Positions 7,461 through 25,900 of a DNA stretch of 64,000 nucleotides are shown here, piece by piece. Origin of the DNA: a virus; the IMG/VR virus record IMGVR_UViG_3300049005_000030, positions 1 through 64,000 of that record. One strand, written 5' to 3'. Within the stretch, counting starts at the first letter, position 1. Each line of letters opens with the position of its first letter. Below the pieces are notes generated by a model. That model had not been told where the DNA came from. It saw only the letters and a program-made list of their open reading frames with translations, and did no database searches. Both the position numbers and the translations under genes were made by a program.

Positions 7461-7490
7461 TTGACTAGCCGGTGAGCCACCGGCTAACCT
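7461..7490 (+). promoter_or_regulatory. repeated promoter/operator copy
   Basis: TTGACT-agccggtgagccaccggc-TAACCT, then GTTCCGC. Confidence 0.8.
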
Positions 7491-8692: not shown

Positions 8693-9550
8693 CTACAACC
8701 CTACCAACGCCAGCGCCGGCCACAGCAGGCCCGTCACGTCGCCGAGCACCACCACGTTGGCCGCCGTCAGCAGCGGCATCACCGCCCGGCGCTCGAACGC
8801 CTTGCCCGCGTGGAAGCGCAGCGGGTACGGCAGCAGGGCCACCTCACGCCAGCGCTGCCCGCGCACCCGCAGCGGCCACCAGAACGGCAGGCCGGCCACC
8901 GTGTGCCCGTCGCCCCAGCAGTGCACGTAACAGCCCAGCGCCACCACCGCGCCCAGCCATGCTCCGACCGGCGCGGGCACGTCGCCGAGCCAGCTGGCGG
9001 TCAGTGCGGTCAGGCCGGCGGCCGTGACGCTGACGGCCACCCAGCCGTTGGAGCGCAGCCACCGGGGCAGCGCGCGGCGCGCGGCGCGGCGCAGCCGCCC
9101 GTGGGGCTTGTCGTGGCCGAACCGGGGTGCGAGGCCGCGCACGGCCAGGGACAGGAAGACGAACAGGCACGCCAGCACGGCGACGCGTCCGCCCCAGCCG
9201 CAGGCCAGCGCGACCAGGCCGCCGAGCACGAGCGGGAACGGCCAGGTGTGGGTGATCTTGCGGTGGCCGTCACGGCACTCCGGCTTGTCGTAGCGGGTGC
9301 GCGTGCGGTGGTAGGCCCAGACGCCGAGGCTGTCCAGGCCGCGCGCGGCCGCCTCGCTCACGGGCCCGAACGCCCGGGAGACGGTGGCGCCCGGGTGGTC
9401 GAGGTCGGGCAGCAGGGCGGCCCCGGCGCACAGCGCGCCGGCCACCAGCTGGACCAGGACGCTGAGGTGGACGCCGAGCAGCGCCGGCAGCAGGTGGGCG
9501 GCGGCGGCGCCGATGACGCTGCCGTGCAGCGCGTGGCCAGGTGCCATCAT
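8693..9550 (-). CDS. membrane-bound metal-dependent hydrolase (YdjM/DUF457-like)
   Basis: MMAPGH, LLPDLDHP, HRKITHT, HCWGD motifs with TM segments. Confidence 0.85.
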   Translation of the reverse strand: MMAPGHALHGSVIGAAAAHLLPALLGVHLSVLVQLVAGALCAGAALLPDLDHPGATVSRAFGPVSEAAARGLDSLGVWAYHRTRTRYDKPECRDGHRKITHTWPFPLVLGGLVALACGWGGRVAVLACLFVFLSLAVRGLAPRFGHDKPHGRLRRAARRALPRWLRSNGWVAVSVTAAGLTALTASWLGDVPAPVGAWLGAVVALGCYVHCWGDGHTVAGLPFWWPLRVRGQRWREVALLPYPLRFHAGKAFERRAVMPLLTAANVVVLGDVTGLLWPALALVGL

Positions 9551-9568
9551 GTTGATCTCTCCCGGTTG

Positions 9569-9598
9569 TTGACTAGCCGTTAGGACACCGGCTACTCT
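9569..9598 (+). promoter_or_regulatory. repeated promoter/operator copy
   Basis: TTGACT-agccgttaggacaccggc-TACTCT, then GTTCCAC. Confidence 0.8.
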
Positions 9599-9639
9599 AC
9601 AGGAGTTCCACACGCGAGAGAATCCCACCGGAGGCTGAG

Positions 9640-9879
9640 ATGTCGGACTACGTGCAGCGACTGCTGGATAAGGACAAGGCACTGCGCAAGGGTTCGGGCG
9701 AGGTGTACCTGGCGATCTTCGGTGAGTACGACGACTCCTATCCGATGGCCGCGTTCGAGGTGAAGGCGGAAGCGATCAAGTACCGCGACAAGCAGAACGA
9801 GACGATCATCGACGCGCACGACCGCGTTCGACTCGCCACGATCCCGTTCTACCCGCGCGGCACCTACACCGCCGAGTAG
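9640..9879 (+). CDS. hypothetical protein
   Basis: 79 aa, GGAGG RBS. Confidence 0.75.
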   Translation: MSDYVQRLLDKDKALRKGSGEVYLAIFGEYDDSYPMAAFEVKAEAIKYRDKQNETIIDAHDRVRLATIPFYPRGTYTAE

Positions 9880-9953
9880 ACGACAATGACCACAGCCCGC
9901 TTTCCGGTGATCATTCACCCGGGGGGCGGGCTGTCCCATGTGAGGAGAAGTGA

Positions 9954-10226
9954 ATGGGTAAAGAGATCGCCGGCATTGGGCTGGCGCTGGCCGGGTTCAT
10001 TGGCCTGGAAGTGATCGGTTTCATGTTGGCCGGATGGCCCTTCCCCGCCATCAGCGGGTGCATTGTGGCCATGGTCTGGGGCGCGTCGATCGCTACCGTC
10101 ACCGGGAACGCCGGAGCGGAGCGGAGCGGGAACGCCACCGGGAACGAGCAGGAAGGCGACGACGGCGGCATGGTCGTGCGCTTCGACCCCGACGACCCGG
10201 AGGCGTTGATCCCGGGGCGGAGCTGA
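9954..10226 (+). CDS. small two-TM membrane protein
   Basis: GAGGAG RBS; tail overlaps CGGGAACG repeats. Confidence 0.7.
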   Translation: MGKEIAGIGLALAGFIGLEVIGFMLAGWPFPAISGCIVAMVWGASIATVTGNAGAERSGNATGNEQEGDDGGMVVRFDPDDPEALIPGRS

Positions 10227-10386
10227 GCGGGAATCGGAGCGGAGCGGTTCCCGATGCAGCGGGAACGCCACCGGGAACGAGCGAGAATCGCAGGTCAGCG
10301 GAGCGGGAACGGGAAGCGGGAAGGTCGGGGACGTGAGCGGGAACGGAACGCCGGAGTGGATCATGCTTCGGGTGGTCGCGGGAACG
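10103..10386 (+). repeat. cluster of CGGGAACG 8-mers with interspersed GCGGAGC
   Basis: perfect copies at 10103, 10127, 10139, 10260, 10272, 10304, 10338, 10379. Confidence 0.9.
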
Positions 10387-10572
10387 GAGTCCGGAGCGGT
10401 GACCGATCACGTCGACGGACGCCTGATCGATCCGGAGGACTGCCCACGGCTGCTGTTCGACCCCAAGTCGGGGTGCGTCATGAACGGCTGGGGGTTAGCC
10501 GAGCGCACCGAGCAGATGGTGGAGGTCAAAGGCCGGCCGGCGCGGGTCTGGACGGTCCGACGAGCCACCTGA
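10333..10572 (+). CDS. small hypothetical protein
   Basis: 79-aa ORF followed by a terminator; start uncertain. Confidence 0.45.
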   Translation: MSGNGTPEWIMLRVVAGTESGAVTDHVDGRLIDPEDCPRLLFDPKSGCVMNGWGLAERTEQMVEVKGRPARVWTVRRAT

Positions 10573-10586
10573 CCCCCTGAGACGAC

Positions 10587-10625
10587 CACGGCGCCCGTCC
10601 CTCCGATCGAGGGGCGGGCGCCGTG
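10587..10625. terminator. hairpin terminator
   Basis: cacggcgcccgtccct / aggggcgggcgccgtg. Confidence 0.7.
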
Positions 10626-10646
10626 TCCTGTTCACTGTCCGTTGCT

Positions 10647-10790
10647 GTGGACGGTCGGACCGTCCACTGGACGGTACGAAGGGGGCTGGGGGAAGTATTT
10701 ACGGGTAGAAGGCCCTTTCGGACCGTCCGTGGACGGTTGGTGGACGGTGGCGGTGGACGGTTGGTGGACGGTCCGACCGTCCACCGTCCA
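10647..10790. repeat. TGGACGGT 8-mer array, candidate clt (cis-acting locus of transfer)
   Basis: 9 perfect copies in both orientations directly downstream of the traB-like stop, with two mutually inverted 21-bp palindromes. Confidence 0.85.
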
Positions 10791-10791
10791 C

Positions 10792-12795
10792 TCACTCAGT
10801 GTTACCGTTGACCGCAGCGAGTCGCGGCCCGCACCACGCCCAGCGCCCGTGCTCACCCGTGCGCTTCACCTTCTTGTCCGCCTCCCAGACGGCCATCAGG
10901 TTGTAGAACCAGCTCGACTTGCGCCCGGCCGCCCGGTACAGCTCGACCGCCTTCACCCCCTGGCCGTCGGCTTCCATCAGCAGCCGCCGGACGATCTTCT
11001 CCGCGTCCTCATCGGAGCGGGAATCCCCCTCCGCCTCCGCGATGGCCTCCGCCCGGACCCGGTCGGACTCCTCCCGCTGCTCCGGGGTCATCGCTTCCCG
11101 CCGCCGCGCGATCACCTCCGCCAGGTCCACGTCCGGATCGTTCTCGCCCCACACCGTGACGTTCTCGCTCACGTCGCCCTCATCGCCTGCCACCTGGTCC
11201 TCCGCTCCGTTGGCGTTCCCGTTCCCGTTCCCGGTGGCGTTCCCGCTCGGTTCCCGCTCCGGCTCCGCCTGGTCGACGGGAACCCAGCGAACCCGCTCCG
11301 CCCACAGCGGACACACGGCGGAAAAACTCTCCTCCATTTGCGGCAACATTTTCGCCGTCTGCCCGCACCGTTCCTCGGCCACCGCGTCCCGCGTCGCATC
11401 GCTGATCCAGAAAATGCGGATCGGGGCTCGGTCTACCACCGCACCATCCTTCGCGTAGCACGTGCCCTGGCGGTTCGGGTCGATCAGATGGGCGCGCACC
11501 CCCGGCGTGCCACCAAAAACGTAGCTCTCGCCTTCGTCGTCCTCCATACGGAAACAGAACTTGTGCCGGATCTGCTGCCGAATCTGCGAAGAGCCAATCG
11601 CCTCCAACGTCGGGTATTGGGTGGCCAAAACGAATCGGACACCCAGACCGCCGCCCTTGTTGGCGATTTCCGCGAACCAGTGCACGATCAGGCCGTCGCC
11701 GGAACCCAGTAGCGTCTTGGCTTCATCGACGACGATTTGGGTGATCGGACCGTGCTTGCTGGTGTCCCACACCCGGTCACCGGTCGAGGCCATCAGCGCC
11801 GCGTTCTGGTCGAGCAGGCCGCCCGGCTCGGCGATCGCGCGCAGCACTTCCTTGGCCTCTGCGACCGTGGACACCACCAGCTCCATGCACTTGCGCCACG
11901 GGCCCAGCTCCACGCCGCCCTTGAAGTCGAAGCCGATCTGTTGCACGTCATCGGTGCAGGCGTCGCTGGCCACGATCAGGTTGATGAGCCCCGACTTGCC
12001 GCTGCGGGTGGCGCCGCCGATCAGCAGGTGGCGGACCCCGTCGCCCTTGACGTAGCGCTGGATGGTGCGCAGCTGGCCGTCGGCGCGCGGGCCCAGCACC
12101 AGCGGGTCGGTGGCCTTGCCCACGTGCGTGGGCAGCGGCCAGTTCTGGGCGGCCGCGTGCGGGTCGCGCTCGATCACCCGGAACCGGACGCTGCTGGTGG
12201 ACTTGCCGTCCTGCTCCATCTGCAACGTGCCCATGTCGGCGCCCAGCACGCTCTCCACCCGAGCGATGTTGGTCTTGCTCAGCACGTCGTCGACCTGATA
12301 GGTGCCCGGTGCCCAGGTGAATTTCCCGCTGTAGCCGGTCACGTCCATGGTCACCTCGACCGGGCGGGCGCGGTCGAAGTTGATCCGTTGCGCCACCGTG
12401 GGCCAGTCCTGCAACGTGGCCTCCATGCGCACCTGCTGACGCTTCACGTGGCTGGTCCACCACGGGATGCCGCCCACGAGGATGCCGGCGCCCAGGGACA
12501 ACCACGTCCACTGCGGCGACATCCACCCTTCGTAGGCGCACATCACCCACGAGGTGGACGCGCCCAGCACGCTGTAGGCGTACATCCGGCGCATGGGGTC
12601 GCCGATGCGGCTGCGGATCCAGGCGTAGCCAGCGAGCGCGCCCGCGCCGAGGCCGACCCCGCTCTGGACGAGGTCGGTCCCGGCCCAGTGCATCGTCCCG
12701 TCCAGCGCTGCGACACCAGCCCCCACATAGAAGGGGCCGAGCGCCAGGCGCTTGCGGCGCAGCACTTCCCAGAGGTTGATGTCGTCGTCACGCAT
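10792..12795 (-). CDS. traB: FtsK/SpoIIIE-family conjugative DNA translocase, TraB-like
   Basis: N-terminal TMs, Walker A GGATRSGKS, DFKGG, Walker B IVVDE, LATQ, C-terminal wHTH (VKAVELYRAAGRKSSWFY...GRW). Confidence 0.85.
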   Translation of the reverse strand: MRDDDINLWEVLRRKRLALGPFYVGAGVAALDGTMHWAGTDLVQSGVGLGAGALAGYAWIRSRIGDPMRRMYAYSVLGASTSWVMCAYEGWMSPQWTWLSLGAGILVGGIPWWTSHVKRQQVRMEATLQDWPTVAQRINFDRARPVEVTMDVTGYSGKFTWAPGTYQVDDVLSKTNIARVESVLGADMGTLQMEQDGKSTSSVRFRVIERDPHAAAQNWPLPTHVGKATDPLVLGPRADGQLRTIQRYVKGDGVRHLLIGGATRSGKSGLINLIVASDACTDDVQQIGFDFKGGVELGPWRKCMELVVSTVAEAKEVLRAIAEPGGLLDQNAALMASTGDRVWDTSKHGPITQIVVDEAKTLLGSGDGLIVHWFAEIANKGGGLGVRFVLATQYPTLEAIGSSQIRQQIRHKFCFRMEDDEGESYVFGGTPGVRAHLIDPNRQGTCYAKDGAVVDRAPIRIFWISDATRDAVAEERCGQTAKMLPQMEESFSAVCPLWAERVRWVPVDQAEPEREPSGNATGNGNGNANGAEDQVAGDEGDVSENVTVWGENDPDVDLAEVIARRREAMTPEQREESDRVRAEAIAEAEGDSRSDEDAEKIVRRLLMEADGQGVKAVELYRAAGRKSSWFYNLMAVWEADKKVKRTGEHGRWAWCGPRLAAVNGNTE
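11214..11256 (-). repeat. CGGGAACG repeats inside the traB linker
   Basis: CGTTCCCG at 11214, 11220, 11226, 11238. Confidence 0.85.
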
Positions 12796-12812
12796 GGTCG
12801 TTCGCGCCTTTC

Positions 12813-13802
12813 TCAGCTGGTCAGGGTCTGGTCGTCGACTACCGCGCCGGCCTTGCGGGCCTGGGCGGCCTTGATCTCGGCGGCCATGTTCTCCTTCACC
12901 GTCGCGATGAAGTTGGCGAAGTAGGCGCCGGTTTCGGTCAGCGAGTCGCTGGCCCGGGTCAGGTTCTGGATGTCGCCGGGGTCGAATCCGGCCTGGACCA
13001 GTCGCAGCTTGTAGGCGCGGACGTGTTCGGACGCCTGGGCCAGGGCCTTCTCCAGGCCGAGCGCGTCGGCCTCGATCTGGCTCAGCCTCAGTCGGCCGGT
13101 CCCGCTGGCCGCGTACTCGGCGAATCCCCGTGCGACGAGGTTGGCCGCCGTGCTGTCTCCTGCCACTGCCTTGGCTCCGATCTTGTCCATGTGCGCCCGG
13201 TTGGCGGCGACGATCTTTTCGGCCCGGCGGTCCTCCGGGGTCTTGGCGGTGCTGCGGTGCCGCCCGCTCGGCTTGCCCTTGACCGGCTTGACGATGACCT
13301 TGCCGTTGGTCTTCTTGGTGGTGCCCAGGTGGAGCGCGGGCTGCTCCGCCTTTTTCTTGTAGATCATCTTTTCGTTGGCGTGAGCCAGGATGAAGTGCTG
13401 ATTGAGCAGCTCGGCGGACTCGAACATGGTCGAGCAGCTAAAACAGGTGAAGCTGCGCCGGCCGAACCTGCGCTTGTGGATCTTGGTCGGGTCCGGGACG
13501 ATCTTGCCGCCCAGCGTCCGCTCCGGGTGGTCTTCGTCGTAGACGATCTCGTGCCCACGCCGGGCGGCTACCTCGCGATCCACCGCGTTGCGCGTCTTGC
13601 GATAGGTGCGCTTGACCTGCCCGGGGGCGGTGAACACCGCGTAGTGCGCTGTGGCCTTCGCGGTGCCCACCGCCACCCGCACCAGCAGGTGGCGGTTGCG
13701 GGCCGGCTTCTTGCGCAGCCAGCCCCGCATCCGACGGCCGACCTTCACGCCGGGCGCCTCTTCCAGCCCGTCGCCCTTGGTGGTTTTGACTACACGTCCC
13801 AT
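12813..13802 (-). CDS. basic protein with C2H2-type zinc finger, in the TraA position
   Basis: FTCFSCSTMFESAELLNQHFILAH; helical C-terminus; directly upstream of traB. Confidence 0.7.
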   Translation of the reverse strand: MGRVVKTTKGDGLEEAPGVKVGRRMRGWLRKKPARNRHLLVRVAVGTAKATAHYAVFTAPGQVKRTYRKTRNAVDREVAARRGHEIVYDEDHPERTLGGKIVPDPTKIHKRRFGRRSFTCFSCSTMFESAELLNQHFILAHANEKMIYKKKAEQPALHLGTTKKTNGKVIVKPVKGKPSGRHRSTAKTPEDRRAEKIVAANRAHMDKIGAKAVAGDSTAANLVARGFAEYAASGTGRLRLSQIEADALGLEKALAQASEHVRAYKLRLVQAGFDPGDIQNLTRASDSLTETGAYFANFIATVKENMAAEIKAAQARKAGAVVDDQTLTS

Positions 13803-13808
13803 GTCTCC

Positions 13809-14630
13809 TTACTCCTGCCCGGTCGCGTCGGCCTCTGCTGCCAGCGCCGCCTTGAAGTCGCGGACGATCTGCCGCCCGCGCCCGGTGTCCTTGGTGGCGC
13901 CGAAGTAGGGCACGGCGACCAGTCGGTGCAGATCCGCACCGGTCACGTCCGCGCTGACGTGGCGCAGGTAGGCGGCCATGGCGTCACCGATGGTCGCGTC
14001 GGCCGGCATCCAGTCGGGGCGTCCGTCGGCGATCGGCGGCTTGGGCTCGGCGGCCGGCTTCGGCTTGGCGGTCGGCGCGGTCAGCACGACCGGGCGGGCG
14101 GCGACCCGGGTCTGCTCGCGGTCGGCGCGCTCGCGCAGGCGACGCACGAACCGGAACAGCAGCTCGACCAACGCGGCCATAGCCAGGGGCGGCCAGCCGG
14201 CGATGATCCACGCGGCCTTCTGGTCGATCCAGTCGTGGCCGATGTTGGCGAACACGGTCATACCCATGCCGCCCAGCGCGATCAGGTAGGCCAGCGGATC
14301 GGTCTTCTTGGTGCGGCTGTCCGCGTAGATGATCATGGACGCGGCCAGGATCGCGCCGTCCACGCTGATCGGGAACAGCGCCGCACGCCAGTCCGGCTCG
14401 TGGTTCTTGGTGGCCCAGTCCTGCATGTGCGAGTAGGAAATGGCCGCCGCGATGCCGACCACGGTCAACGTGGCGAGCAGGGCGACGCCGATCACCAGCC
14501 GCAGCTCCCAGCGACGCACATGGCCGCCGGCCGGTGACGTCGGACGCCTGAGCCGGAACCCGCGAAGCTTCGACAGCACGCGGCGGGTTGCCCCAGGCGC
14601 GTCGTGAGCACTACGACGCGCGAACTTCAT
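13809..14630 (-). CDS. DUF2637 / Spd-like membrane protein
   Basis: ISYSHM, LFPISVDG, ANIGH, IAGWPPLA, four TMs, C-terminal HTH-like segment; GAAAGGAG RBS. Confidence 0.8.
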   Translation of the reverse strand: MKFARRSAHDAPGATRRVLSKLRGFRLRRPTSPAGGHVRRWELRLVIGVALLATLTVVGIAAAISYSHMQDWATKNHEPDWRAALFPISVDGAILAASMIIYADSRTKKTDPLAYLIALGGMGMTVFANIGHDWIDQKAAWIIAGWPPLAMAALVELLFRFVRRLRERADREQTRVAARPVVLTAPTAKPKPAAEPKPPIADGRPDWMPADATIGDAMAAYLRHVSADVTGADLHRLVAVPYFGATKDTGRGRQIVRDFKAALAAEADATGQE

Positions 14631-14929
14631 GATCCGGTCGTCTCCTTTCGGCGGGCCGATCGCCTGCGCCATGTGCTGGCCGGCACCTGTGTGCAGTTGG
14701 CCAGGACATTCCACGACGTCCCGTTGTCTCTGTTGATCTTCAGTACCGCGTCGCGCACCCCGGTCAGCGTGCTGACCATCCGGTCCAGCGTCCGCAGGTC
14801 GCCCAGCGGATCGGAACCGAGCGCGACGGCGGAACCGAGGGCATCGACCCGGTCAGCGACAGCGCGCACTTGGGCGCTGAAGTCGAGGGGTTCGGTGTCC
14901 ACGTAGTCGCTCCGTTCTGGGTTGCGCAT
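14627..14929 (-). CDS. small HTH regulator heading the tra operon
   Basis: RDNGTSWNVLANCTQVPASTWRRR; ATGA overlap with next gene. Confidence 0.6.
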   Translation of the reverse strand: MRNPERSDYVDTEPLDFSAQVRAVADRVDALGSAVALGSDPLGDLRTLDRMVSTLTGVRDAVLKINRDNGTSWNVLANCTQVPASTWRRRSARRKETTGS

Positions 14930-15096
14930 TTACACATACCCTACCCCGGTATAGATGCCGCCGTCCAACCGGATACACAACCCCACCCGAGCAGGCGACA
15001 CCCCCGTCACCGCGCGTCACCCGACCGCGTGGCGGGGCCGGCGGGAACCCGCGCGCGGCTACCCTCACCGCAGGTGATCGTGGAAAGGGGTGGCCG

Positions 15097-16719
15097 GTGG
15101 CGGTGACGTTCGCGCCGAACCTGCGCCGGAAGGTGGTGGCCACCACCCCCGCTCGGGAAACCAAAGGTCTGGCCGACCGGGTCAAGACGTTTTTCCGTCA
15201 GTACGTCATCCCCGGCCAGCCCTACTTCGTCCCGTGGAACACCGACCGCGCCGTCCGCGAGGGCTTCGAGACCAACCCGTGGATCTACCGCGCCGTGCAC
15301 GTGATCGCGTCCAAGTCGCTGGACCTGCCGATCGTGCTGCGCCAGAACGACGGCGACAAGGGCGATCCGCTGGCGCCGGAGCTGGACCCGACCCGGCTGC
15401 TGTACCTGCTCAACGTGGAGGCCAACCCCTGGGAGCGGGCCAAGATCTTCCGCTACCGCCTGATCGCCCAGTTCCTGCTGTCCAGCAGGGGCGTGTTCAT
15501 CGAGGTGGTGCGCACCCGCGCCGGCCGCATCGGGCTGCTGAGCCTGCTGGACCCGGACAAGGTCGAGATCATCCCGACCAAGGAAATCCTGCCCGACGGC
15601 ACCGAGAAGATCGACCCTATCGGCACGTTCCGGATCACCCTGCAAGGCGGGGAACGCACGTTCGACTACCTACCCCGCTTCGACCCCAAGGGCAGTTACG
15701 ACAGCCAGGCCAGCAGCGTGTTGTGGGTGCGCTCACCGCACCCCACCCTGATGTTCCAGGGCATGACGCCTACCCAGGCCGCCGCCATGAGCGCCGACAT
15801 GGACCGCGCCGCCCGGCTCTACAACCGCCGTTTCATGGACTCCGACGGCCGGCCGGGCACGGTGATCGCCGTCAAGGGTACCGCCACCCGCGACACTCTG
15901 GACGTGGTCGAGAGCCGGATAGCCGGCAAGGCCCGGATCGACGGCCCTGGGGGTGTCGTCGCCATCCAGGCCGATGGGCTCAGCATTGCCGACACCTCCG
16001 GCAACCCTCGGGACACCCAGTGGGCCGAGACGATGGACCGGATGCGCAAAGAGGTCAGTATGACCTTCGGCGTCCCAGAGTCGATCTTGGGCGACGCGTC
16101 CGGACGCACCTTCGACAACGCCGACGCCGAAAAAGAGAACTTCTGGGAGGACACCGAGTCCCCCCTGCTGGCCATCCTGGACGACCAGCTGGACGTGCTC
16201 ACCGGCGGCTATGACGACTCCCTGTTCCTGCGCCACGACAAGTCCGGCGTGTGGGTGCTCGGCCGGCACCGGCGCATGGAGCTGGACCGCGCCTCGGCCG
16301 AGGTCGACACCGGCAAGCGCACCATCAACGAGTACCGCGCGCTGGCCGGCCTGGACGAGTACGAGAGCCCGCTGGCCCGCGTGCTGCTCATCCCCGGCGG
16401 CAAGATCATCGGCGCACTCAACGCCGAGGACGAGGCGGCCGCCGCCAAGGCCCCGATCCTGGGCAACCGGCTGCCTGCGGGCAACGTCGAAGCGCAGCAG
16501 GCCGCAGCCTTGAGCGGCCAGGCCGGCGCGGCCATCGGCTCGCTGGCCGGGGTGAACGCGGCCAACAACATCAACAACGCCAACAGCCTGCGCGCCCTGC
16601 CGCCCGGCGACCGCCAACCCACGGCGCTGGCCGGCAAGGACGGCGAGCCCCCGGACTTGGAGGGTAAGCAGGGCGGCGCGCGAGACCGAGGCGGGCGCAC
16701 CGCCACTGTCTGGCGATGA
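15097..16719 (+). CDS. portal protein (HK97-like)
   Basis: NPWIYRAVHVIA, YNRRFMDSDGRPG, VSMTFGVPESILGDASGRTFDNA, TINEYR. Confidence 0.9.
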   Translation: MAVTFAPNLRRKVVATTPARETKGLADRVKTFFRQYVIPGQPYFVPWNTDRAVREGFETNPWIYRAVHVIASKSLDLPIVLRQNDGDKGDPLAPELDPTRLLYLLNVEANPWERAKIFRYRLIAQFLLSSRGVFIEVVRTRAGRIGLLSLLDPDKVEIIPTKEILPDGTEKIDPIGTFRITLQGGERTFDYLPRFDPKGSYDSQASSVLWVRSPHPTLMFQGMTPTQAAAMSADMDRAARLYNRRFMDSDGRPGTVIAVKGTATRDTLDVVESRIAGKARIDGPGGVVAIQADGLSIADTSGNPRDTQWAETMDRMRKEVSMTFGVPESILGDASGRTFDNADAEKENFWEDTESPLLAILDDQLDVLTGGYDDSLFLRHDKSGVWVLGRHRRMELDRASAEVDTGKRTINEYRALAGLDEYESPLARVLLIPGGKIIGALNAEDEAAAAKAPILGNRLPAGNVEAQQAAALSGQAGAAIGSLAGVNAANNINNANSLRALPPGDRQPTALAGKDGEPPDLEGKQGGARDRGGRTATVWR

Positions 16720-19922: not shown

Positions 19923-22900
19923 GTGACCGCACCCCCGATCCCCGCCCTGGAATACAAGACCCTCAGTGCCACCCTGGCCGCGCCGACCGCGCTCAACCCC
20001 AGTGACACCGGGGACGCCGTGGTGGTCGGCTACGACGACGCCAAGGGCACCGTCGACGCCGTAGTGGCCGTCACCGGCACTCGCGACGAGGTGGGCGACA
20101 TCGTCACCCCCGGCGCGTTCAAGTCGAGCATCGCTAGCCGCCACCCCAAGATGTGCCTGGGCCACGACTGGAACCGACCCATCGGCTGGCCCATCGACTA
20201 CAAGGAACTGCTGCCCGGAGACCCCGGCCTGCCGGCCGAGACCGCCGACGGCAAGCCGTGGCCTGCCGAGGCCGGCGGCCTGTGGACGCGCAACCAGTAC
20301 ATGCTCGACACCCAGGACGGCCGCGACGCCTACGCGCACGCGAAGTTCTACGGCAACAAGACGGCCTACTCCATCGGCTACGTCGTCACCAAGTCCCGCA
20401 AGGCCCTGGTCGACGGCCTGCCCACCCGGATCATCGACGAACTCGACCTGTACGAGTACGGCCCGGTGCTGCACGGAGCGCACCCGCTGGCCACCCAGCA
20501 GTCGGTGAAGACCGCCGCGCCGCAGGGTATCGAGAACAAGGTGCGGCTGGTTCACGACGCCCACTACTGGGGTCTGCCGATGGGCACCCCGATCCACCCC
20601 GGCATGAAGCCGCGCGGCGCGAAGGCGCAGAAGCTGGAACGGGCCGGGCACGCCGTGTCCGAGACCGAGGGCGCGGTGGACATCCCCAATGACAAGCTGC
20701 GGATCAAGCCGACCGCGCGGGGCAAGTCGAAGTTCAAGCCGGACGGCGCGCTACAGGCCCAGCTCTACGGCGAGATCATGTCGAAGATCGACGAGGGCGA
20801 GGCTCCCGAGGACTTCTCGGTCGACGACCCGAACGGCCTGAACAAGAAGGAAGGCGAGTACAACCCGCTGGACCTGATGGTGGCCAACGGCGTCACCCCG
20901 GCCGAGATGGAGAACACCCTCCGCAACGCCAACTGGGACGACAGCCGGGTGGGCGACTCGGCCGACAACCAGGACCAGATCAACACTTTCGTTGACGACG
21001 TGGTGGGCGTCTACCGCGAGAAGTACAACGCCGCCCTGGTCCAGCAGAACGGCAACAAGGACACCGCCACCGTCGCCGACCCCGCCGACACCGGCACAGA
21101 CTCGGCCGGTGTCGAAGGCCCCACCCCGGACGTGCCTGACACCACCGCGCCCGGAGACGCCAATGCCGGCGACACCACCGCGCCGGCCGCGCCCGAAGCG
21201 ACCGCGCCGGACCACCCGCAGGCAGCGCCGGGGTCGACTCCCCCGGCCGCGCCGGCAGCCGCGCCGGGGCAGCCGGACGCGCCCGGCATGTCCACCACGA
21301 AGCTGACCACGCTGCCCAAGCACGAGGCGGCGGCCGCCGCCGGCTCCATGTCCGACCAGGAACTGGCCGCGCACGACACCGAGATGGCCTCGCGTGCCAC
21401 CCAGCTCGGCCGCGACGGCCAGGTCAGCCCCAACCATCAGACCGTCAAGGACGAGGTCGCCCGGCGTGCGGGCAACCCGCCGCAGGCCCCGGCGGCCGGG
21501 CCCGCCGCCCCGGCCGCGAACGCGCCGGCTCCGACGACGGCCAAGCCGCCGCGCAAGCTGGCCGCCAAGCCGGCCGCCGCGATCGGCGCGGCCAAGCCCG
21601 GCAGCGTCACCCAGCACCCGACCGGCCCCGACGGCAAGCCCGACACCACCGCCGAGCCCGTGGCCAAGCAGGGCCTGGTCACCGACAAGGTGCCGCCGAA
21701 GATGGCCGACGGCCTGGCCAAGGCTGGCCTGGCCGAGCACACCGCCGAGCCCGGCAAGATGGTGCTGACCCCGCAGGGCGAGCAGCACCACCATGCCATC
21801 AACGGCACCACGCCGCCCGCGCCGAACGGCGCGCCAGGGGAACAGGCCCCTACCGCGCCGACGATGTCCACGAACAAACTGGCCTCGCTGAACAAGCAGG
21901 ACGTGGCCACAGCGGTGGGCGCGATGTCCGACCACGAGCTGGCCGGACACGACCAGGAGTTGGCCAGCCGCGCCTCCCAGCTCGGCAAGCCAGGTCAGGT
22001 CACCCCCAACCACCAAGCGGTCAAGGACGAGATCGCCCAGCGTCCCGCACCGGCCCCCGGCGGGATCCCCCCGACCGCCGCCGTGGGAGCGCCGGGGATG
22101 GCTCCGGCCGTCCCCGGCGCATCGGCCGTCCCTGGCGAGCCTGCGCACGCCAATGCCGTGGCCGCCGAGACGTTGCGCACCCTGCCGCGCGACGCCTCCG
22201 GCCGCGTCGACCTGGTCAACGCGCCCACCTCGCTGGTTCAGACCATGCGACAGGCCGGCATCGACGACAGCGGCGGCGCGGAACAAGATGAACAGTCGTT
22301 TACCCGCGCGCTGGACGCGCTGGACCAGCAGTACGGCCAGGACCCGGCCATGGCGCACGCGCTGACCACCGCACGCGGCTTCGTCACTGGCGAGCAGCCC
22401 GGCGCCCGCGTCATCCAGAAGCAGGCCGCCGCCGACGCCAAGCAGCTCCAGACCGATGAGACCCCGGTGGGCGACCGGGCCGACGCCGCGCGCGTGCTGG
22501 CCTCCGCCCTGAACAAGTCCGGCATGGCTTACATGTCCGACCCGTCCGGCAACGTCCGCGACAGCCGCCCCATCCCGAACGCCCTGTCGAAGTACGCCCA
22601 GGCCCTGGTCAGCTATCACGGCGCGCTGCCGCCCGCGAAGGTCGCCAAGCCCTCCGGCGCGCCCGACTACACCCCGACCGGCGACGCCAGCCGCCTCGGC
22701 GAGCTGACCGACAGCCAGTTGGCCGCCGAGGTTGGCCACGCGCAGGGCAAGCTGGACGAGATCACCAAGGCCGACCCCCGCCGCGAGTCCGGCCAGCACG
22801 CTGACGCCAAGCTGAAGCTGGACGCCTTCCAGGGTGAGCACAGCCGACGGCAGCAGGCCGGGGAGACGCGCCCGGACGAGACCGCTCCCGACGCAAGCGG

Positions 22901-25900
22901 AGGCACTCCTCCGAATCCGGAGGCCGTTTCGGCGACGTCCACACAGGACGGACAACCGGCCGCCGTTCCCAACGCTGCCAACGAAACCGGCATCCCCGGC
23001 ACACCCGCCGCACCGCCGGCCACCCCGCACTCCGACACTGTTCCGACCCCACAGGAAGCCGCCCAGATCACCGCCGACGAACAGGGCGACGTCCAGGACA
23101 TCGGCGACTCCGCTCAAGGCGTGGTCGAGTCCGACGACGGCGAGTTCGAGGTGGAACCCGACATCGCCGAACGCCAGGACCGCATCGCCACCCTGCTCGG
23201 CCAGTCCGATAGCGGCAACCTCGACCTGGGCAGCCAGAACGACGACCAGTTGCGCTCAACCCGAGGCGACATCGTCGGCGAGATCCAGTTGCAGCGGTAC
23301 CTGGACAACCGCAACCGCCAGCGCGCCAACCCGCAGCCCACCACACCGGAACCGCCGCACGCCCCGGAGGGCGCCGCACCGGCCCAGGGAACCGTCGACG
23401 GCCACACCCCCGGCACCCAGGCGACGCCCGGCGCGCCGGTGCCGGCCGTTCCGGCCGAATCGGGGCCGCCGCCGCAGCGCCCTGGCGTCGCGGGCGCGGC
23501 CGAGGACTTCGCCGACGCCCTGGAATCCGGCGACAGCGAGAAGATCGACGCCGCGCGGGCCCGGCTGGCGTCCAGCCTGCGCCGGTCCAAGACAGACGCC
23601 GCCTCGGTCGGCGCGATGCGCGAGCTGGCCTCCGGCGAAGGCGACCCGAGTGCGGAGGACCTGCGAGCCGGCGCCCAGACGGTGCGCACGGAGGTGCGCG
23701 AGCGGCGCAACACCCAGGCTCGCAGCCGCCGCACCGCGCGCCGCTTCGAGCGCGACCACCTGCGCAACCTGCTGCACCAGGTCGAAGGCGAGATGGACCG
23801 CCGCAACATGCGGTACGACCCGGTGGCGCCGGAGTCCGGCGACGGCGCGGCCGCCTCCGGGACGTGGCGGACCGAGCTGCGCAAGCATTCCTGGTCCAAT
23901 CTCGGCTTCCAGGAAGACCATCTGAGCGGGGCCAACTTCACCGCCATGGTCTCCACCCCGGTCGACGCCAAAAACAACCCCACCGCTGGCGCGAACTACA
24001 CCTGGAAGACCATCGACAACGATGGCAACACCATCACCCAGGGCAATGGCACCGTCGACAACGCCACCGGCGCCCGCGACGCCATCGTCACCGCGCTCAA
24101 GGCGCAGCAGGCCCTGGGCAACCTGCCCGCCGACGCCGGGGTGCCCGAACCCAGCACTCCCCAGACCAGCTCGGCGCGCACCCATGCCGACGTGGCCGCC
24201 GCCGTCAGCCAGATGCAGGAGCGGCTGAGCACGGCCGAACGCGCCGTCAACCCCATCACGGGGGCCCGCGATCCGCTGGGCAAGCGCCCGACGCTGACCC
24301 CGCCCGCGCGACCCGCGTTCACCAGCCCCGACCAGGTGCGCCAACACCTGGCGACCCTGGCCGCCGACGGGTCGCAGACCCGCCAGCTCATCGCCCGGCG
24401 AGCCGTGAACGTGCAGTGGGACAACGTGCAGCTCACCCCCGGCGGCGGCCTCATGGTCGTCACCGTGGCCGGCGAGAAGGACCCGCAGCTGTGGCACACC
24501 GGCAGTGGCCGCTCGGCCATGTCGCTGATCTACCGGGGTTCCGGCGGCGCCTCCCGCCTGTCCGCGCCGGATCTGCTGCGCGCCGGCACGCTCATGGAGT
24601 CGCTGCCCGACGACAACGGGCACACCGTCGACTTCTCCAGGTCCGACGACAACAGCGTGATGACCAGCACGAGCGACTACACCGTGGGCGACCGCAGCGG
24701 CGTCGACGCGTTCGCTCGCAACGTCATGAGCGCGCTGGTCGCCGAGAAGATCAAGAACGGCCAGTGGGGCAGCCCCGTGGTCAGGGGCATGTCCTCCGAC
24801 GTCGCTCCGTTCTCGCCGGGCAGCAACCACACCCGCGCCGGCTACGTGCAACAGAACCGCGACGCCCTGACCACAATGCTGTCCAACTCCCTGACCGGCC
24901 GCCGCGTCAAGCCCACCGGCGAGGACGCGGACACCCTCAACGTCGCCACCGCCGCCCAGACCCTGACCAACCTGGGCGCGCCCGACGCGGCCGCCGTGCT
25001 GCTGCGCCGCCGCGCCGCCGAGGTGCGCGCCACCTTCGGCGGTGAGGCCGACGCGCACGGTGCGAGCACCCTGGACAACCTGGCCGCCGGCCACCTGTCC
25101 ACCTACTCACCTGTCCTGTCCCCCGGCGAGCGGCTGCTCAGCATCACCCAGGGGGAACGCGTCACCGTGGCCGACCCCGACGGCAACGCCCGTAGCTACC
25201 GGGTGCTGTCGCCGCCGCGCACCGGCACGTTCCCCGCCTATCGCACCGCCACCGTCATGGACGAGTCGACCGGCGAGACCGGCGTGCTCACCGTCGCCAA
25301 CAATGCCGCCGAGCAGCCGCAGATGACCATCAGTCCCAGCGCGGACCTGCCGGCCATGGTGCGCATCGACCTGCACTCGCCCACCTTTACCGTGACCGGC
25401 GCGGACGAACCGGCCCCCGCCAACGCCGACGAGGTGCGCGCGAACGCCATGGCCGAGGTGGACGCCATCCCGCATGAGGTGCTGGACGCGGCCGCCGCCG
25501 CCCTGCCCTCCACCAACACCGAGACCGCCGCGCGTCGGGCTCTGCCGGCCGACCAGCGGCCGCCCCGGCGCACCAGCCCGCGCGCGGTCCCCAAGACCGC
25601 GCCGGAGGCCAAGCCGGGCACCCCGGTCGCTGGCGAGCAGCACCTGGCGGCCACCCAGGCCAGCACGCTCAGCTCGTGGGTGGGCGCCGAGCACACGCTG
25701 TCCGACTCGGCCCCTGCCGGTGGATTTGACTCGCTGGCCTCATGGCGGGAGTGGGCCAGGGAGGCCGCCAGCGACCCGAACACGCCGCCGAAGGTGCAGC
25801 AGGGGCTGACCAATGCGTTGCTCAACGACGACTACCTGGAAGCGAACGGGGCACGTCTGTCACCGGGTGGTCACATGATCGTGTTCGGAAAGAACGGACA

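What the first reader, a model, noticed from the sequence alone, without database searches (positions are those of the whole stretch)
8693..14929. Myophage carrying a Streptomyces-type TraB conjugation module: candidate conjugative phage for mycelial spread
Seen: a leftward operon HTH - DUF2637/Spd-like - TraA-position protein - FtsK ATPase (TMs, Walker A/B, C-terminal wHTH), followed by 8-bp repeat arrays, back to back with the portal gene of an apparently intact contractile-tail operon. Known: in actinomycete plasmids and AICEs a single TraB translocase moves dsDNA after binding 8-bp repeats in clt, and Spd proteins aid intramycelial spread. Inference: this element moves both as a virion and by conjugation. 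The phage promoter motif occurs within and on both sides of the region and no integrase, Rep or att is seen beside it, which favours a resident phage module over an inserted AICE. A Streptomyces plasmid-phage with transfer genes (pZL12) has been reported as I recall, so the concept is rare rather than unprecedented.
Basis: partly seen in the sequence, partly recalled or inferred. Interest (0 to 1): 0.9.

Follow-up and report, generated by a model that had tools for sequence, protein, structure and literature searches.

The report
Conjugation-type DNA pump in myophage
A complete 101-kb contractile-tailed phage of filamentous soil actinomycetes keeps, as an old and conserved part of its genome, the membrane DNA pump (TraB type), partner genes and docking repeats that Streptomyces plasmids use to push double-stranded DNA between hyphae, so its DNA may spread through a mycelium without virus particles; this is untested, and plasmid-phages with such genes are already known.

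Summary
On the minus strand lie a small HTH-like gene, a four-helix DUF2637 membrane protein, a conserved C2H2 zinc-finger protein and a 667-aa FtsK-family ATPase with N-terminal helices, Walker A/B and a C-terminal winged helix, diverging from the portal gene. Right after the ATPase stop codon is the densest short-repeat window of the whole genome (TGGACGGT: 10 of 18 genome copies). A second word, CGGGAACG, brackets it in inverted clusters.

The record is a complete 101,153-bp virus with terminal repeats, not a prophage carrying an inserted element. The DUF2637, zinc-finger and pump genes keep their order in 17 related viral loci, next to the portal gene in most. The repeat arrays keep their position but use lineage-specific words.

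In a motor-domain tree the pump sits with pIJ101 Tra, Streptomyces plasmid TraB-like proteins and integrative-element (AICE) pumps, outside chromosomal FtsK.

No integrase, resolvase, ParA or ParB was found. Classical conjugation from a stable donor is therefore less likely than spread of replicating phage DNA between hyphal compartments. Function is inferred only.

Precedents exist (plasmid-phages pZL12 and pFP4; Spd homologues on phiC31). This scan has also noted TraB modules in phages of at least 59 other genomes. New variant of a known kind.

The parts
14930..15096 (.). Divergent intergenic region between the portal gene and the traB operon. On the minus strand it shows TTGGAC-N19-TAGGGT seven bases before the ATG, so the mRNA may be leaderless. 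It lacks the phage-wide TAGCCG-N9-CGGCTA motif.
   Evidence: Sequence read; motif positions. The simple sigma-70 scan found nothing here, so the promoter is inferred.
14627..14929 (-). 100-aa protein with an HTH-like C-terminus. Present only in the closer relatives.
   Evidence: No family hit. Homologues in the same position in L002-L006 and L027.
13809..14714 (-). [quoted passage not shown] The likely start is the ATG at 14630.
   Evidence: Pfam PF10935, E 2.3e-19. Hydropathy. Conserved in 16 related viral loci. Ten of 20 DUF2637 loci in actinomycete genomes have a TraB-like gene within 10 kb.
12813..13802 (-). 329-aa basic protein with an invariant C-x2-C-x12-H-x4-H zinc finger and a confident C-terminal helical bundle. 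Middle gene of the conserved triad.
   Evidence: Alignment A2: C120, C123, H136 and H141 invariant. Model shows a beta-beta-alpha finger at 118-141 and a bundle at 189-317. Only short local matches to C2H2 fingers. Found in 17 loci.
10792..12795 (-). TraB-like dsDNA translocase, 667 aa: N-terminal helices, FtsK alpha-beta motor, disordered linker and C-terminal winged helix (recognition helix 627-639).
11214..11252 (-). Cluster of the second word (CGGGAACG, 4 copies) inside the traB linker coding sequence, where it encodes SGNATGNGNGN.
   Evidence: An equivalent cluster lies 180-530 bp before the stop codon in relatives, with other words.
10647..10790 (.). clt-like array: 9 copies of TGGACGGT, two copies of a 21-bp palindrome (one mismatch apart) and four direct copies spaced 11-13 bp. 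It lies between the traB stop codon and the terminator.
   Evidence: family D19. Position conserved in 14 related loci with lineage-specific words.
10681..10709 (-). Conserved non-coding core between the two halves of the array. Clade consensus ACCTGTA-N4-6-CTCCCCCAGCCCCCTC. Function unknown.
   Evidence: DNA alignment A3 shows invariant columns across 11 loci whose pumps are only 33-47% identical.
10590..10622 (.). GC-rich hairpin between the convergent units. Probably a two-way terminator.
   Evidence: Sequence. In L007 and L008 the equivalent hairpin is followed by a T run in the traB direction.
10103..10386 (+). Second-word cluster (CGGGAACG, 8 copies), in inverted orientation to the cluster inside traB. 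It overlaps small plus-strand ORFs.
   Evidence: Relatives have equivalent downstream clusters, with up to about 50 copies in all.
9640..10572 (+). Three small plus-strand ORFs (79, 90 and 79 aa) behind a phage-type promoter at 9569-9600. The 90-aa one is a small membrane protein conserved in four relatives.
   Evidence: GC3 gene call, hydropathy, motif, homologues.
8693..9550 (-). YdjM-like membrane-bound metal-dependent hydrolase, syntenic downstream of the module in relatives.
   Evidence: Pfam PF04307, E 1.3e-17. phrog_20744. Synteny.
15097..16719 (+). Portal protein; first gene of the head and contractile-tail operon (context).
   Evidence: Pfam Phage_portal, E 1.7e-39. MuF-like and protease genes follow. 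Capsid, sheath, tube and tape measure.

Best explanation
This is a resident, ancestral DNA-transfer module of a clade of about 100-kb contractile-tailed actinophages. It was derived from, or shares a root with, the single-protein dsDNA conjugation system of actinomycete plasmids and AICEs.

Proposed mechanism:
1. The TraB-like ATPase, anchored in the membrane by its N-terminal helices, forms a hexameric FtsK-type pump.
2. Its C-terminal winged helix docks on the array of TGGACGGT words just 3' of its own gene, which acts as a clt.
3. The pump then drives double-stranded phage DNA through the membrane or septal cross-wall.
4. The four-helix DUF2637 protein and the zinc-finger protein act as partners, in the roles that Spd proteins play for plasmids.

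The phage shows no lysogeny or plasmid-maintenance genes. The most likely use is therefore virion-independent spread of replicating phage genomes into neighbouring hyphal compartments or touching hyphae during infection.

Shown: homology, domain architecture, tree position, repeat statistics, conserved synteny.
Inferred: DNA binding, pumping, and the biological purpose.
For: - Complete virus record with terminal repeats.
- Architecture of four N-terminal helices, FtsK motor and winged helix.
- Best NCBIfam model is plasmid_TraB, aligned over 24-661 of the protein and 17-638 of 639 model positions, at 92.9 bits; the next best, EccC, scores 25 bits.
- hhalign to pIJ101 Tra gives 98% probability over 305 columns, including the region before the P-loop.
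- In the motor-domain tree the phage clade lies inside a superclade with 98% SH-aLRT support. That superclade holds pIJ101 Tra, Streptomyces and Kitasatospora plasmid pumps, DUF2637-linked chromosomal pumps and Gilgamesh gp10. E. coli and actinomycete FtsK and Bacillus-phage FtsK-likes lie outside it.
- The nearest non-phage branch comes from small integrated elements with tyrosine integrase and Prim-Pol/DUF3987 replication genes, that is AICE-like elements, and from linear plasmids, one of which has DUF2637 upstream of the pump.
- Ten of 20 DUF2637 loci have such a pump within 10 kb.
- The array is the densest repeat window of the genome and sits where plasmid clt loci sit (literature).
- Relatives keep arrays in the same place but with different words, which partly track changes in the recognition helix.
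- The gene triad is conserved in 17 loci.
- The only named sources are filamentous genera, Actinophytocola and Saccharothrix.
- Thoma et al. 2015 already proposed that Spd homologues on actinophages help phage DNA to spread.
Against: - No experiment exists for any member of the clade.
- The NCBIfam score is far below the equivalog cut-off of 800, and that model also hits chromosomal FtsK in 9 of 14 control genomes.
- The tree is a quick search on 46 rows. pIJ101 Tra is on a long branch, and support for the inner nodes linking phage and plasmid groups is only 81-88%.
- DUF2637 is not homologous to any characterised Spd protein.
- The words form 13-21-bp palindromes typical of dimeric regulators, and a similar word lies in the traB promoter region. 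The arrays could therefore be operators.
- The match between word and recognition helix is imperfect: L013 and L008 have similar helices but different words.
- A second repeat class and a conserved core have no counterpart in described clt loci.
Confidence: 0.5

Rival explanations
1. Septal segregation or retention rather than spread. The pump works like SpoIIIE or the Streptomyces sporulation translocases. It moves phage genomes, marked by the arrays, across closing septa so that they are not cut, or so that they end up in spores as a carrier state.
For: Same membrane-anchored FtsK-type architecture. Inverted clusters of the second word converge on the central array in a way that recalls polar loading sequences around dif. 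Many Bacillus phages of spore formers also carry FtsK/SpoIIIE-like genes.
Against: The pump groups with conjugation pumps, not with chromosomal FtsK or the Bacillus-phage proteins. No recombinase or dif-like system is present. No FtsK gamma or alpha Pfam domain was detected.
Confidence: 0.2
2. The repeats are regulatory operators or an iteron-type origin bound by the HTH or zinc-finger protein. The FtsK-like ATPase serves replication, host takeover or superinfection exclusion, not transfer of the phage genome.
For: The words form palindromes flanking a conserved core. A similar word lies in the operon's promoter region. The module contains two other candidate DNA-binding proteins. PHROGs files such proteins under moron/host takeover.
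Against: An N-terminal membrane anchor and a C-terminal winged helix on the ATPase are the TraB design. The phage already has primase/polymerase, helicases and nucleases elsewhere. The arrays lie in the 3' untranslated region of the pump gene, as in plasmid clt loci.
Confidence: 0.2
3. A recently inserted AICE or plasmid fragment that is a passenger in this one phage.
For: The closest non-phage relatives are AICE-like elements. The operon has its own promoter type.
Against: The gene triad and its order are conserved in 17 related viral loci, next to the portal gene in most, at 25-47% pump identity. There are no flanking direct repeats, no integrase or Rep and no GC break.
Confidence: 0.02

Closest known systems
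TraB/Tra/TraA dsDNA translocases of Streptomyces conjugative plasmids and AICEs with their clt loci (pSVH1 TraB, pIJ101 Tra, pWTY27 TraA)
   Same: Membrane anchor, FtsK-type motor and C-terminal winged helix. Arrays of 7-9-bp words with direct and inverted copies at or just after the 3' end of the gene. Operon shared with small membrane proteins. Same superclade in the tree.
   Different: Only about 24% identity to pIJ101 Tra. 92.9 bits against a cut-off of 800 for the NCBIfam equivalog. Carried by a 101-kb myophage with no Rep, Kor or Int genes. Two repeat classes plus a conserved core. The partners are DUF2637 and a C2H2 zinc-finger protein, not the described Spd proteins.
Streptomyces plasmid-phages pZL12/phiZL12 and pFP4 (Zhong et al. 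2010 J Bacteriol 192:3747; Chen et al. 2012 Plasmid 68:170; both known to me only through citations in PMC3583192, PMC4487206 and PMC4170104)
   Same: Virion genes and a major tra gene in one replicon. [quoted passage not shown]
   Different: Those are plasmid prophages with repA/iteron and parAB. This genome has no ParA, ParB, integrase or resolvase. I could not read the primary papers or compare sequences.
Streptomyces phage Gilgamesh gp10 'FtsK-like DNA translocase' and the 125-132-kb circular Streptomyces 'plasmids' related to it
   Same: Portal 36-38% identical and pump about 25% identical, within the same TraB superclade.
   Different: These elements carry a tyrosine recombinase and occur as episomes in isolates. 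The pump gene is about 20 kb from the portal gene, and no DUF2637 gene is annotated next to it.
Chromosomal FtsK/SpoIIIE with KOPS/SRS polar sequences
   Same: Motor fold. Short oriented words recognised by a winged-helix domain. Inverted word clusters that converge on a site.
   Different: No FtsK_4TM, alpha or gamma Pfam domains. Lies outside the chromosomal FtsK clade. The words are clustered locally, not spread over the replicon.

Membership tests
TraB/Tra family of actinomycete conjugative dsDNA translocases | FtsK/SpoIIIE-type motor with Walker A and Walker B | tested here: met
   PF01580, E 2.2e-8. GATRSGKSG and IVVDEA motifs. Foldseek to FtsK motor, E 7e-17, about 400 columns.
TraB/Tra family of actinomycete conjugative dsDNA translocases | N-terminal membrane anchor | tested here: inconclusive
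   Four helices at 20-114 in the model. Hydropathy is only 1.2 in this protein but 1.8-2.4 in clade relatives.
TraB/Tra family of actinomycete conjugative dsDNA translocases | C-terminal winged helix-turn-helix that reads clt | tested here: met
   Fold H595-612, H616-622, H627-639 and two strands at pLDDT 75-90. DNA binding itself was not tested.
TraB/Tra family of actinomycete conjugative dsDNA translocases | Score above the NCBIfam NF041214 plasmid_TraB equivalog cut-off (800 bits) | tested here: not met
   92.9 bits, although aligned end to end. The model also hits chromosomal FtsK in control genomes.
TraB/Tra family of actinomycete conjugative dsDNA translocases | Groups with plasmid/AICE pumps rather than chromosomal FtsK | tested here: met
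   Superclade with 98% SH-aLRT that includes pIJ101 Tra and plasmid/AICE pumps; FtsK lies outside. Quick tree with limited sampling.
TraB/Tra family of actinomycete conjugative dsDNA translocases | Cognate clt: clustered short repeats at or near the 3' end of the gene | tested here: met
   Nine TGGACGGT copies in 144 bp just after the stop codon. Densest window of the genome. Position conserved in relatives.
TraB/Tra family of actinomycete conjugative dsDNA translocases | Required for transfer of the replicon between hyphae | not testable with these tools
   Needs matings or infection assays.
Spd (spread) proteins, SpdB2 type | [quoted passage not shown] | tested here: met
   Four predicted helices at 74-187. 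Same operon, upstream of the pump. Literature description.
Spd (spread) proteins, SpdB2 type | Sequence homology to a characterised Spd protein | tested here: not met
   pIJ101 SpdB, SpdA and KilB have no DUF2637 or any other Pfam hit. There is no DUF2637 in pIJ101 or phiC31. pSVH1 SpdB2 itself was not available to compare.
Plasmid-phage (pZL12/pFP4 type) | Virion genes plus a tra gene in one replicon | tested here: met
Plasmid-phage (pZL12/pFP4 type) | Plasmid maintenance functions (parAB, rep/iteron) that allow a stable episomal donor | tested here: not met
   No ParB_N or CbiA/ParA match in six frames of the complete genome. No such hit among about 60 proteins scanned.
AICE (actinomycete integrative and conjugative element) | Integrase with att sites and a Rep module next to the transfer genes | tested here: not met
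   No PF00589 or PF00239 match. No flanking repeats.
Chromosomal FtsK | FtsK_4TM, FtsK_alpha and FtsK_gamma domains and placement in the chromosomal clade | tested here: not met
   Only PF01580 was found. The protein lies outside the E. coli plus actinomycete FtsK clade, which has 99% support.

The most novel reading that the evidence does not exclude
An apparently obligately lytic phage lineage uses a conjugation-derived pump and docking site to move its replicating genome across hyphal cross-walls or between touching hyphae. One adsorption event would then exploit many compartments. This would be a bacterial counterpart of virus movement proteins, with TraB, DUF2637 and the zinc-finger protein forming the channel complex.
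Probability: 0.3. Interest if true: 0.85.

Novelty: new variant of a known kind. Interest (0 to 1): 0.6.

Why it matters
Hyphae of filamentous actinomycetes are divided by cross-walls, which should limit a phage to the compartment it enters. A phage-borne TraB system with its own docking site would give a route of spread that needs no particles. That would affect plaque growth, how phage defence plays out within a mycelium, and gene flow between phages, plasmids and AICEs.

The case adds three points to the known plasmid-phages:
- The module is a conserved core of a whole clade of about 100-kb myophages.
- The clade shows no lysogeny or plasmid-maintenance genes.
- The cis element is elaborate and conserved: two word classes plus a core.

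A cultured relative with a related pump exists (Streptomyces phage Gilgamesh, gp10), so the idea can be tested at the bench.

Tried and rejected
Synteny was taken from the search for related loci instead.
- The first phage DNA search failed on length.
- The pZL12 paper is not held and SCP2 is not in the plasmid collection. There is therefore no direct comparison with pZL12, pFP4, SCP2 or pSVH1 proteins.
- tblastn with the DUF2637 protein found no phage and only three weak plasmid hits, whose contexts were uninformative.
- Inserted AICE: rejected.
- Packaging ATPase: rejected, because a canonical TerL lies at 89912-91411.
- DUF2637 as a homologue of pIJ101 SpdB or of the phiC31 Spd-like protein: rejected.
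- The zinc-finger protein gave no significant fold match.
- The sigma-70 scan found no promoter in the region.
- GC skew gave no origin signal near the arrays.
- The scan of species genomes used one strict peptide pattern, so absence of integrated copies is only weak evidence.
- About half of the roughly 129 predicted genes were never scanned, so small repressors could have been missed.
- The DUF2637 tally of 15 of 41 genomes includes one unpublished genome, G007. No sequence from it was fetched or used.


Full report
WHAT THE RECORD IS

The window is the first 64 kb of a 101,153-bp virus record with direct terminal repeats, rated complete. I found a 127-bp terminal repeat. G+C is about 70% with no break at the region. 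A codon-position G+C gene call gives about 129 genes.

Virion genes. The plus-strand block from 15 kb onward encodes portal, MuF-like protein, protease-related protein, major capsid, tail sheath, tube, tape measure and baseplate wedge. The contractile tail is therefore real. TerL lies at 89912-91411.

Replication genes. These include a primase/polymerase, a UvrD-like helicase, a PD-(D/E)XK nuclease, an SNF2 helicase and an exonuclease.

THE OBSERVATION

On the minus strand, diverging from the portal gene, lie four genes:
- a 100-aa protein with an HTH-like tail and no family hit;
- a DUF2637 protein (Pfam E 2.3e-19) with four predicted transmembrane helices;
- a 329-aa protein;
- a 667-aa FtsK/SpoIIIE-family protein.

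The 667-aa protein has Walker A and Walker B motifs. Its AlphaFold model (pLDDT 75) shows four N-terminal helices, a beta-rich domain, the motor, a disordered linker (511-558) and a canonical winged helix whose third helix is 627-639. Foldseek puts FtsK motor domains first (E 7e-17), followed by the TcpA conjugation coupling protein. The N-terminal helices are only moderately hydrophobic here but clearly membrane-like in relatives.

The 329-aa protein belongs to a family with an invariant C-x2-C-x12-H-x4-H motif that folds as a beta-beta-alpha finger, plus a confident helical bundle. It has no significant structural neighbour.

THE REPEATS

First word. TGGACGGT occurs 12 times in the window against 3.2 expected. 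Ten of the 18 copies in the genome lie at 10549-10790, directly after the stop codon at 10792. In an unbiased scan this is the most repeat-dense 200-bp window of the entire 101 kb. The array holds two copies of a 21-bp palindrome and four direct copies spaced 11-13 bp, about one helical turn apart. A GC-rich hairpin follows.

Second word. CGGGAACG forms a plus-strand cluster at 10103-10386 and a minus-strand cluster inside the linker-coding part of the pump gene. The two clusters face each other across the first array.

The rest of the stated interval is coding: a YdjM-like hydrolase and three small plus-strand ORFs behind a phage-type promoter at 9569-9600.

RESIDENT OR INSERTED

The pump has about 95 full-length relatives at 33-86% identity, many on contigs of 96-110 kb. 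Nineteen viral loci were fetched.

- In L002-L008, L011 and L012 the order is the same as here: portal on the opposite strand, then DUF2637, zinc-finger protein and pump, with the hydrolase further downstream where the contig reaches that far and the HTH-like gene in the closest relatives. Portal identity is 43-60% and pump identity 33-47%.
- Iterative searches find the DUF2637, zinc-finger and pump triad in 16-17 loci.
- There are no att-like direct repeats around the module.
- There is no tyrosine or serine recombinase anywhere in the genome.

The module is therefore an old core feature of this phage clade, not a passenger.

WHAT KIND OF FtsK-LIKE PROTEIN

- NCBIfam's best model is plasmid_TraB. 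It aligns end to end at 92.9 bits, far below the equivalog cut-off of 800 but well above EccC at 25 bits. That model also touches chromosomal FtsK in control genomes, so it is not decisive on its own.
- A profile of the clade matches pIJ101 Tra at 98% probability over 305 columns.
- I built a maximum-likelihood tree of the motor domain. The 46 rows comprised clade members, distant viral relatives, pIJ101 Tra, five plasmid pumps, ten DUF2637-linked chromosomal pumps, Gilgamesh gp10, two Bacillus-group phage proteins, E. coli and actinomycete FtsK, one short FtsK-like ORF from the same assembled genome, and EccC as outgroup.
- Chromosomal FtsK forms its own clade (99%), as do the Bacillus-group phage proteins (99%). 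All actinomycete plasmid, AICE and phage pumps, including this clade, fall in one superclade (98% SH-aLRT).
- The nearest non-phage branch holds two linear-plasmid pumps and three chromosomal ones. One of the plasmids has a DUF2637 gene upstream. Two of the chromosomal pumps lie near tyrosine integrases and the third beside Prim-Pol/DUF3987 genes, so they are AICE-like.
- Ten of 20 DUF2637 loci sampled from actinomycete genomes have such a pump within 10 kb.

Caveats: this was a quick search, pIJ101 Tra sits on a long branch, and the inner nodes have 81-88% support.

THE cis ELEMENT IN RELATIVES

Every relative with sequence past the stop codon shows the same layout:
1. words containing GTCCA/TGGAC or a variant;
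2. a conserved core, consensus ACCTGTA-N4-6-CTCCCCCAGCCCCCTC;
3. more words, inverted;
4. a hairpin, followed in some loci by a T run in the traB direction.

The words differ by lineage: TGGACGGT, TGGACGAT, GTCCGG, GGAACG, CCAGAAC, GTCTCA and TGGATGG. These differences partly follow changes in the predicted recognition helix: SSWFY with GTCCA, S/RTW-L/T-Y with GTCCGG, KSWVY with TTCCGC, DTWAH with CCAGAAC and RATVH with GTCTCA. There is one mismatch between L008 and L013.

The second word class is also conserved in position: one cluster 180-530 bp before the stop codon and another 200-1800 bp after it. Here too the words are lineage-specific, with up to about 50 copies.

Published clt loci are likewise arrays of 5-9-bp direct and inverted repeats at, or overlapping, the 3' end of the tra gene. 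TraB of pSVH1 reads 8-bp repeats through helix 3 of its winged helix (PMC3583192; PMC4170104).

LIFESTYLE

- Six-frame searches of the complete genome find no Phage_integrase, Resolvase, ParB_N or CbiA/ParA.
- No such function appeared among about 60 proteins scanned.
- In one genome per 185,579 species, the only hit was a 104,981-bp contig in an Actinophytocola metagenome-assembled genome. That scan used a strict pattern.

The clade therefore looks virulent, or at least non-integrating. By contrast, the Gilgamesh group carries a tyrosine recombinase and turns up as circular 125-132-kb 'plasmids' in Streptomyces isolates. Its portal is 36-38% identical and its pump lies in the same superclade.

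MECHANISM AND RIVALS

Best reading (about 0.5): a TraB-type pump docks on its array and moves phage dsDNA across membranes or cross-walls. DUF2637 and the zinc-finger protein act as partners, and the result is virion-independent spread within or between hyphae during infection.

Rivals:
- septal segregation or spore carriage (0.2);
- operators or an origin bound by the other DNA-binding proteins, with the ATPase serving another purpose (0.2);
- a recent AICE insert (0.02, contradicted).

COMPARISON WITH WHAT IS KNOWN

- Plasmid-phages pZL12 and pFP4 propagate and conjugate as episomes and also make particles, and pZL12 needs a major tra gene plus two neighbours. I could read these only through citations.
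- Thoma et al. [quoted passage not shown] I found no DUF2637 domain in phiC31.
- Actinophage annotators already label such genes 'FtsK-like DNA translocase'.
- This scan has recorded TraB/DUF2637 modules in phages of at least 59 other genomes. The kind has therefore been found before on other DNA.

What is new here:
- a clade of about 100-kb myophages with no recognisable lysogeny or plasmid-maintenance genes;
- conserved placement beside the portal gene;
- the zinc-finger partner;
- the two-class repeat system with a conserved core.

Verdict: new variant of a known kind, interest 0.6.

Noticed in passing
window 10681-10709, and the equivalent sites in L002-L013 and L027: A non-coding core (consensus ACCTGTA-N4-6-CTCCCCCAGCCCCCTC) is nearly invariant between the two halves of the array, in phages whose pumps are only 33-47% identical. 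It is not an obvious promoter, and no described clt has such a core.
   Followed up: partly
window 10103-10386 (+) and 11214-11252 (-); L003, L009 and L013 around the pump stop codon: The second word class is written through coding sequence. The same 22-nt word gives the peptide SGNATGN both in the pump linker and in a 90-aa membrane protein on the other strand. Relatives carry up to about 50 copies of their own word. The disordered linker of the pump seems to be shaped by selection at the DNA level.
   Followed up: partly
window 12813-13802 (-): The zinc-finger protein ends in a confident helical hairpin bundle with weak (E about 1.5) Foldseek resemblance to EsxA-type WXG100 hairpins, and has a conserved extreme C-terminus. 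EccC, the ATPase that recognises such substrates, is an FtsK relative. This may be chance.
   Followed up: no
plasmid records CP108533.1, NZ_CP107821.1, NZ_CP108441.1, NZ_CP122459.1, NZ_CP070374.1, CP109288.1, NZ_CP107934.1 (H74-H81): Seven circular Streptomyces 'plasmids' of 125-132 kb carry a phage portal 36-38% identical to this one. Two were checked and also carry a TraB-like gene and a tyrosine recombinase. They look like episomal Gilgamesh-type prophages deposited as plasmids.
   Followed up: partly
window 14955-14962 (-): The -35-like hexamer of the traB operon lies inside TTGGACGG, which matches seven of the eight bases of the array word. The protein that binds the array may also autoregulate the operon.
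   Followed up: no
window 377-59114: The palindrome-spaced promoter motif TAGCCG-N9-CGGCTA has 11 matches (one mismatch allowed) against 0.11 expected. It flanks the module at 7466, 8321, 9574 and 19862 but is absent from the traB operon's own upstream region.
   Followed up: partly
window 8693-9550 (-): A YdjM-like membrane-bound metal-dependent hydrolase is conserved downstream of the module in eight relatives. Its role is unknown, and it may belong to the same functional unit.
   Followed up: no
window 19923-27005 (+): A single 2360-aa ORF follows the protease-related gene in the head operon, with partial homologues in all relatives. It was not examined.
   Followed up: no
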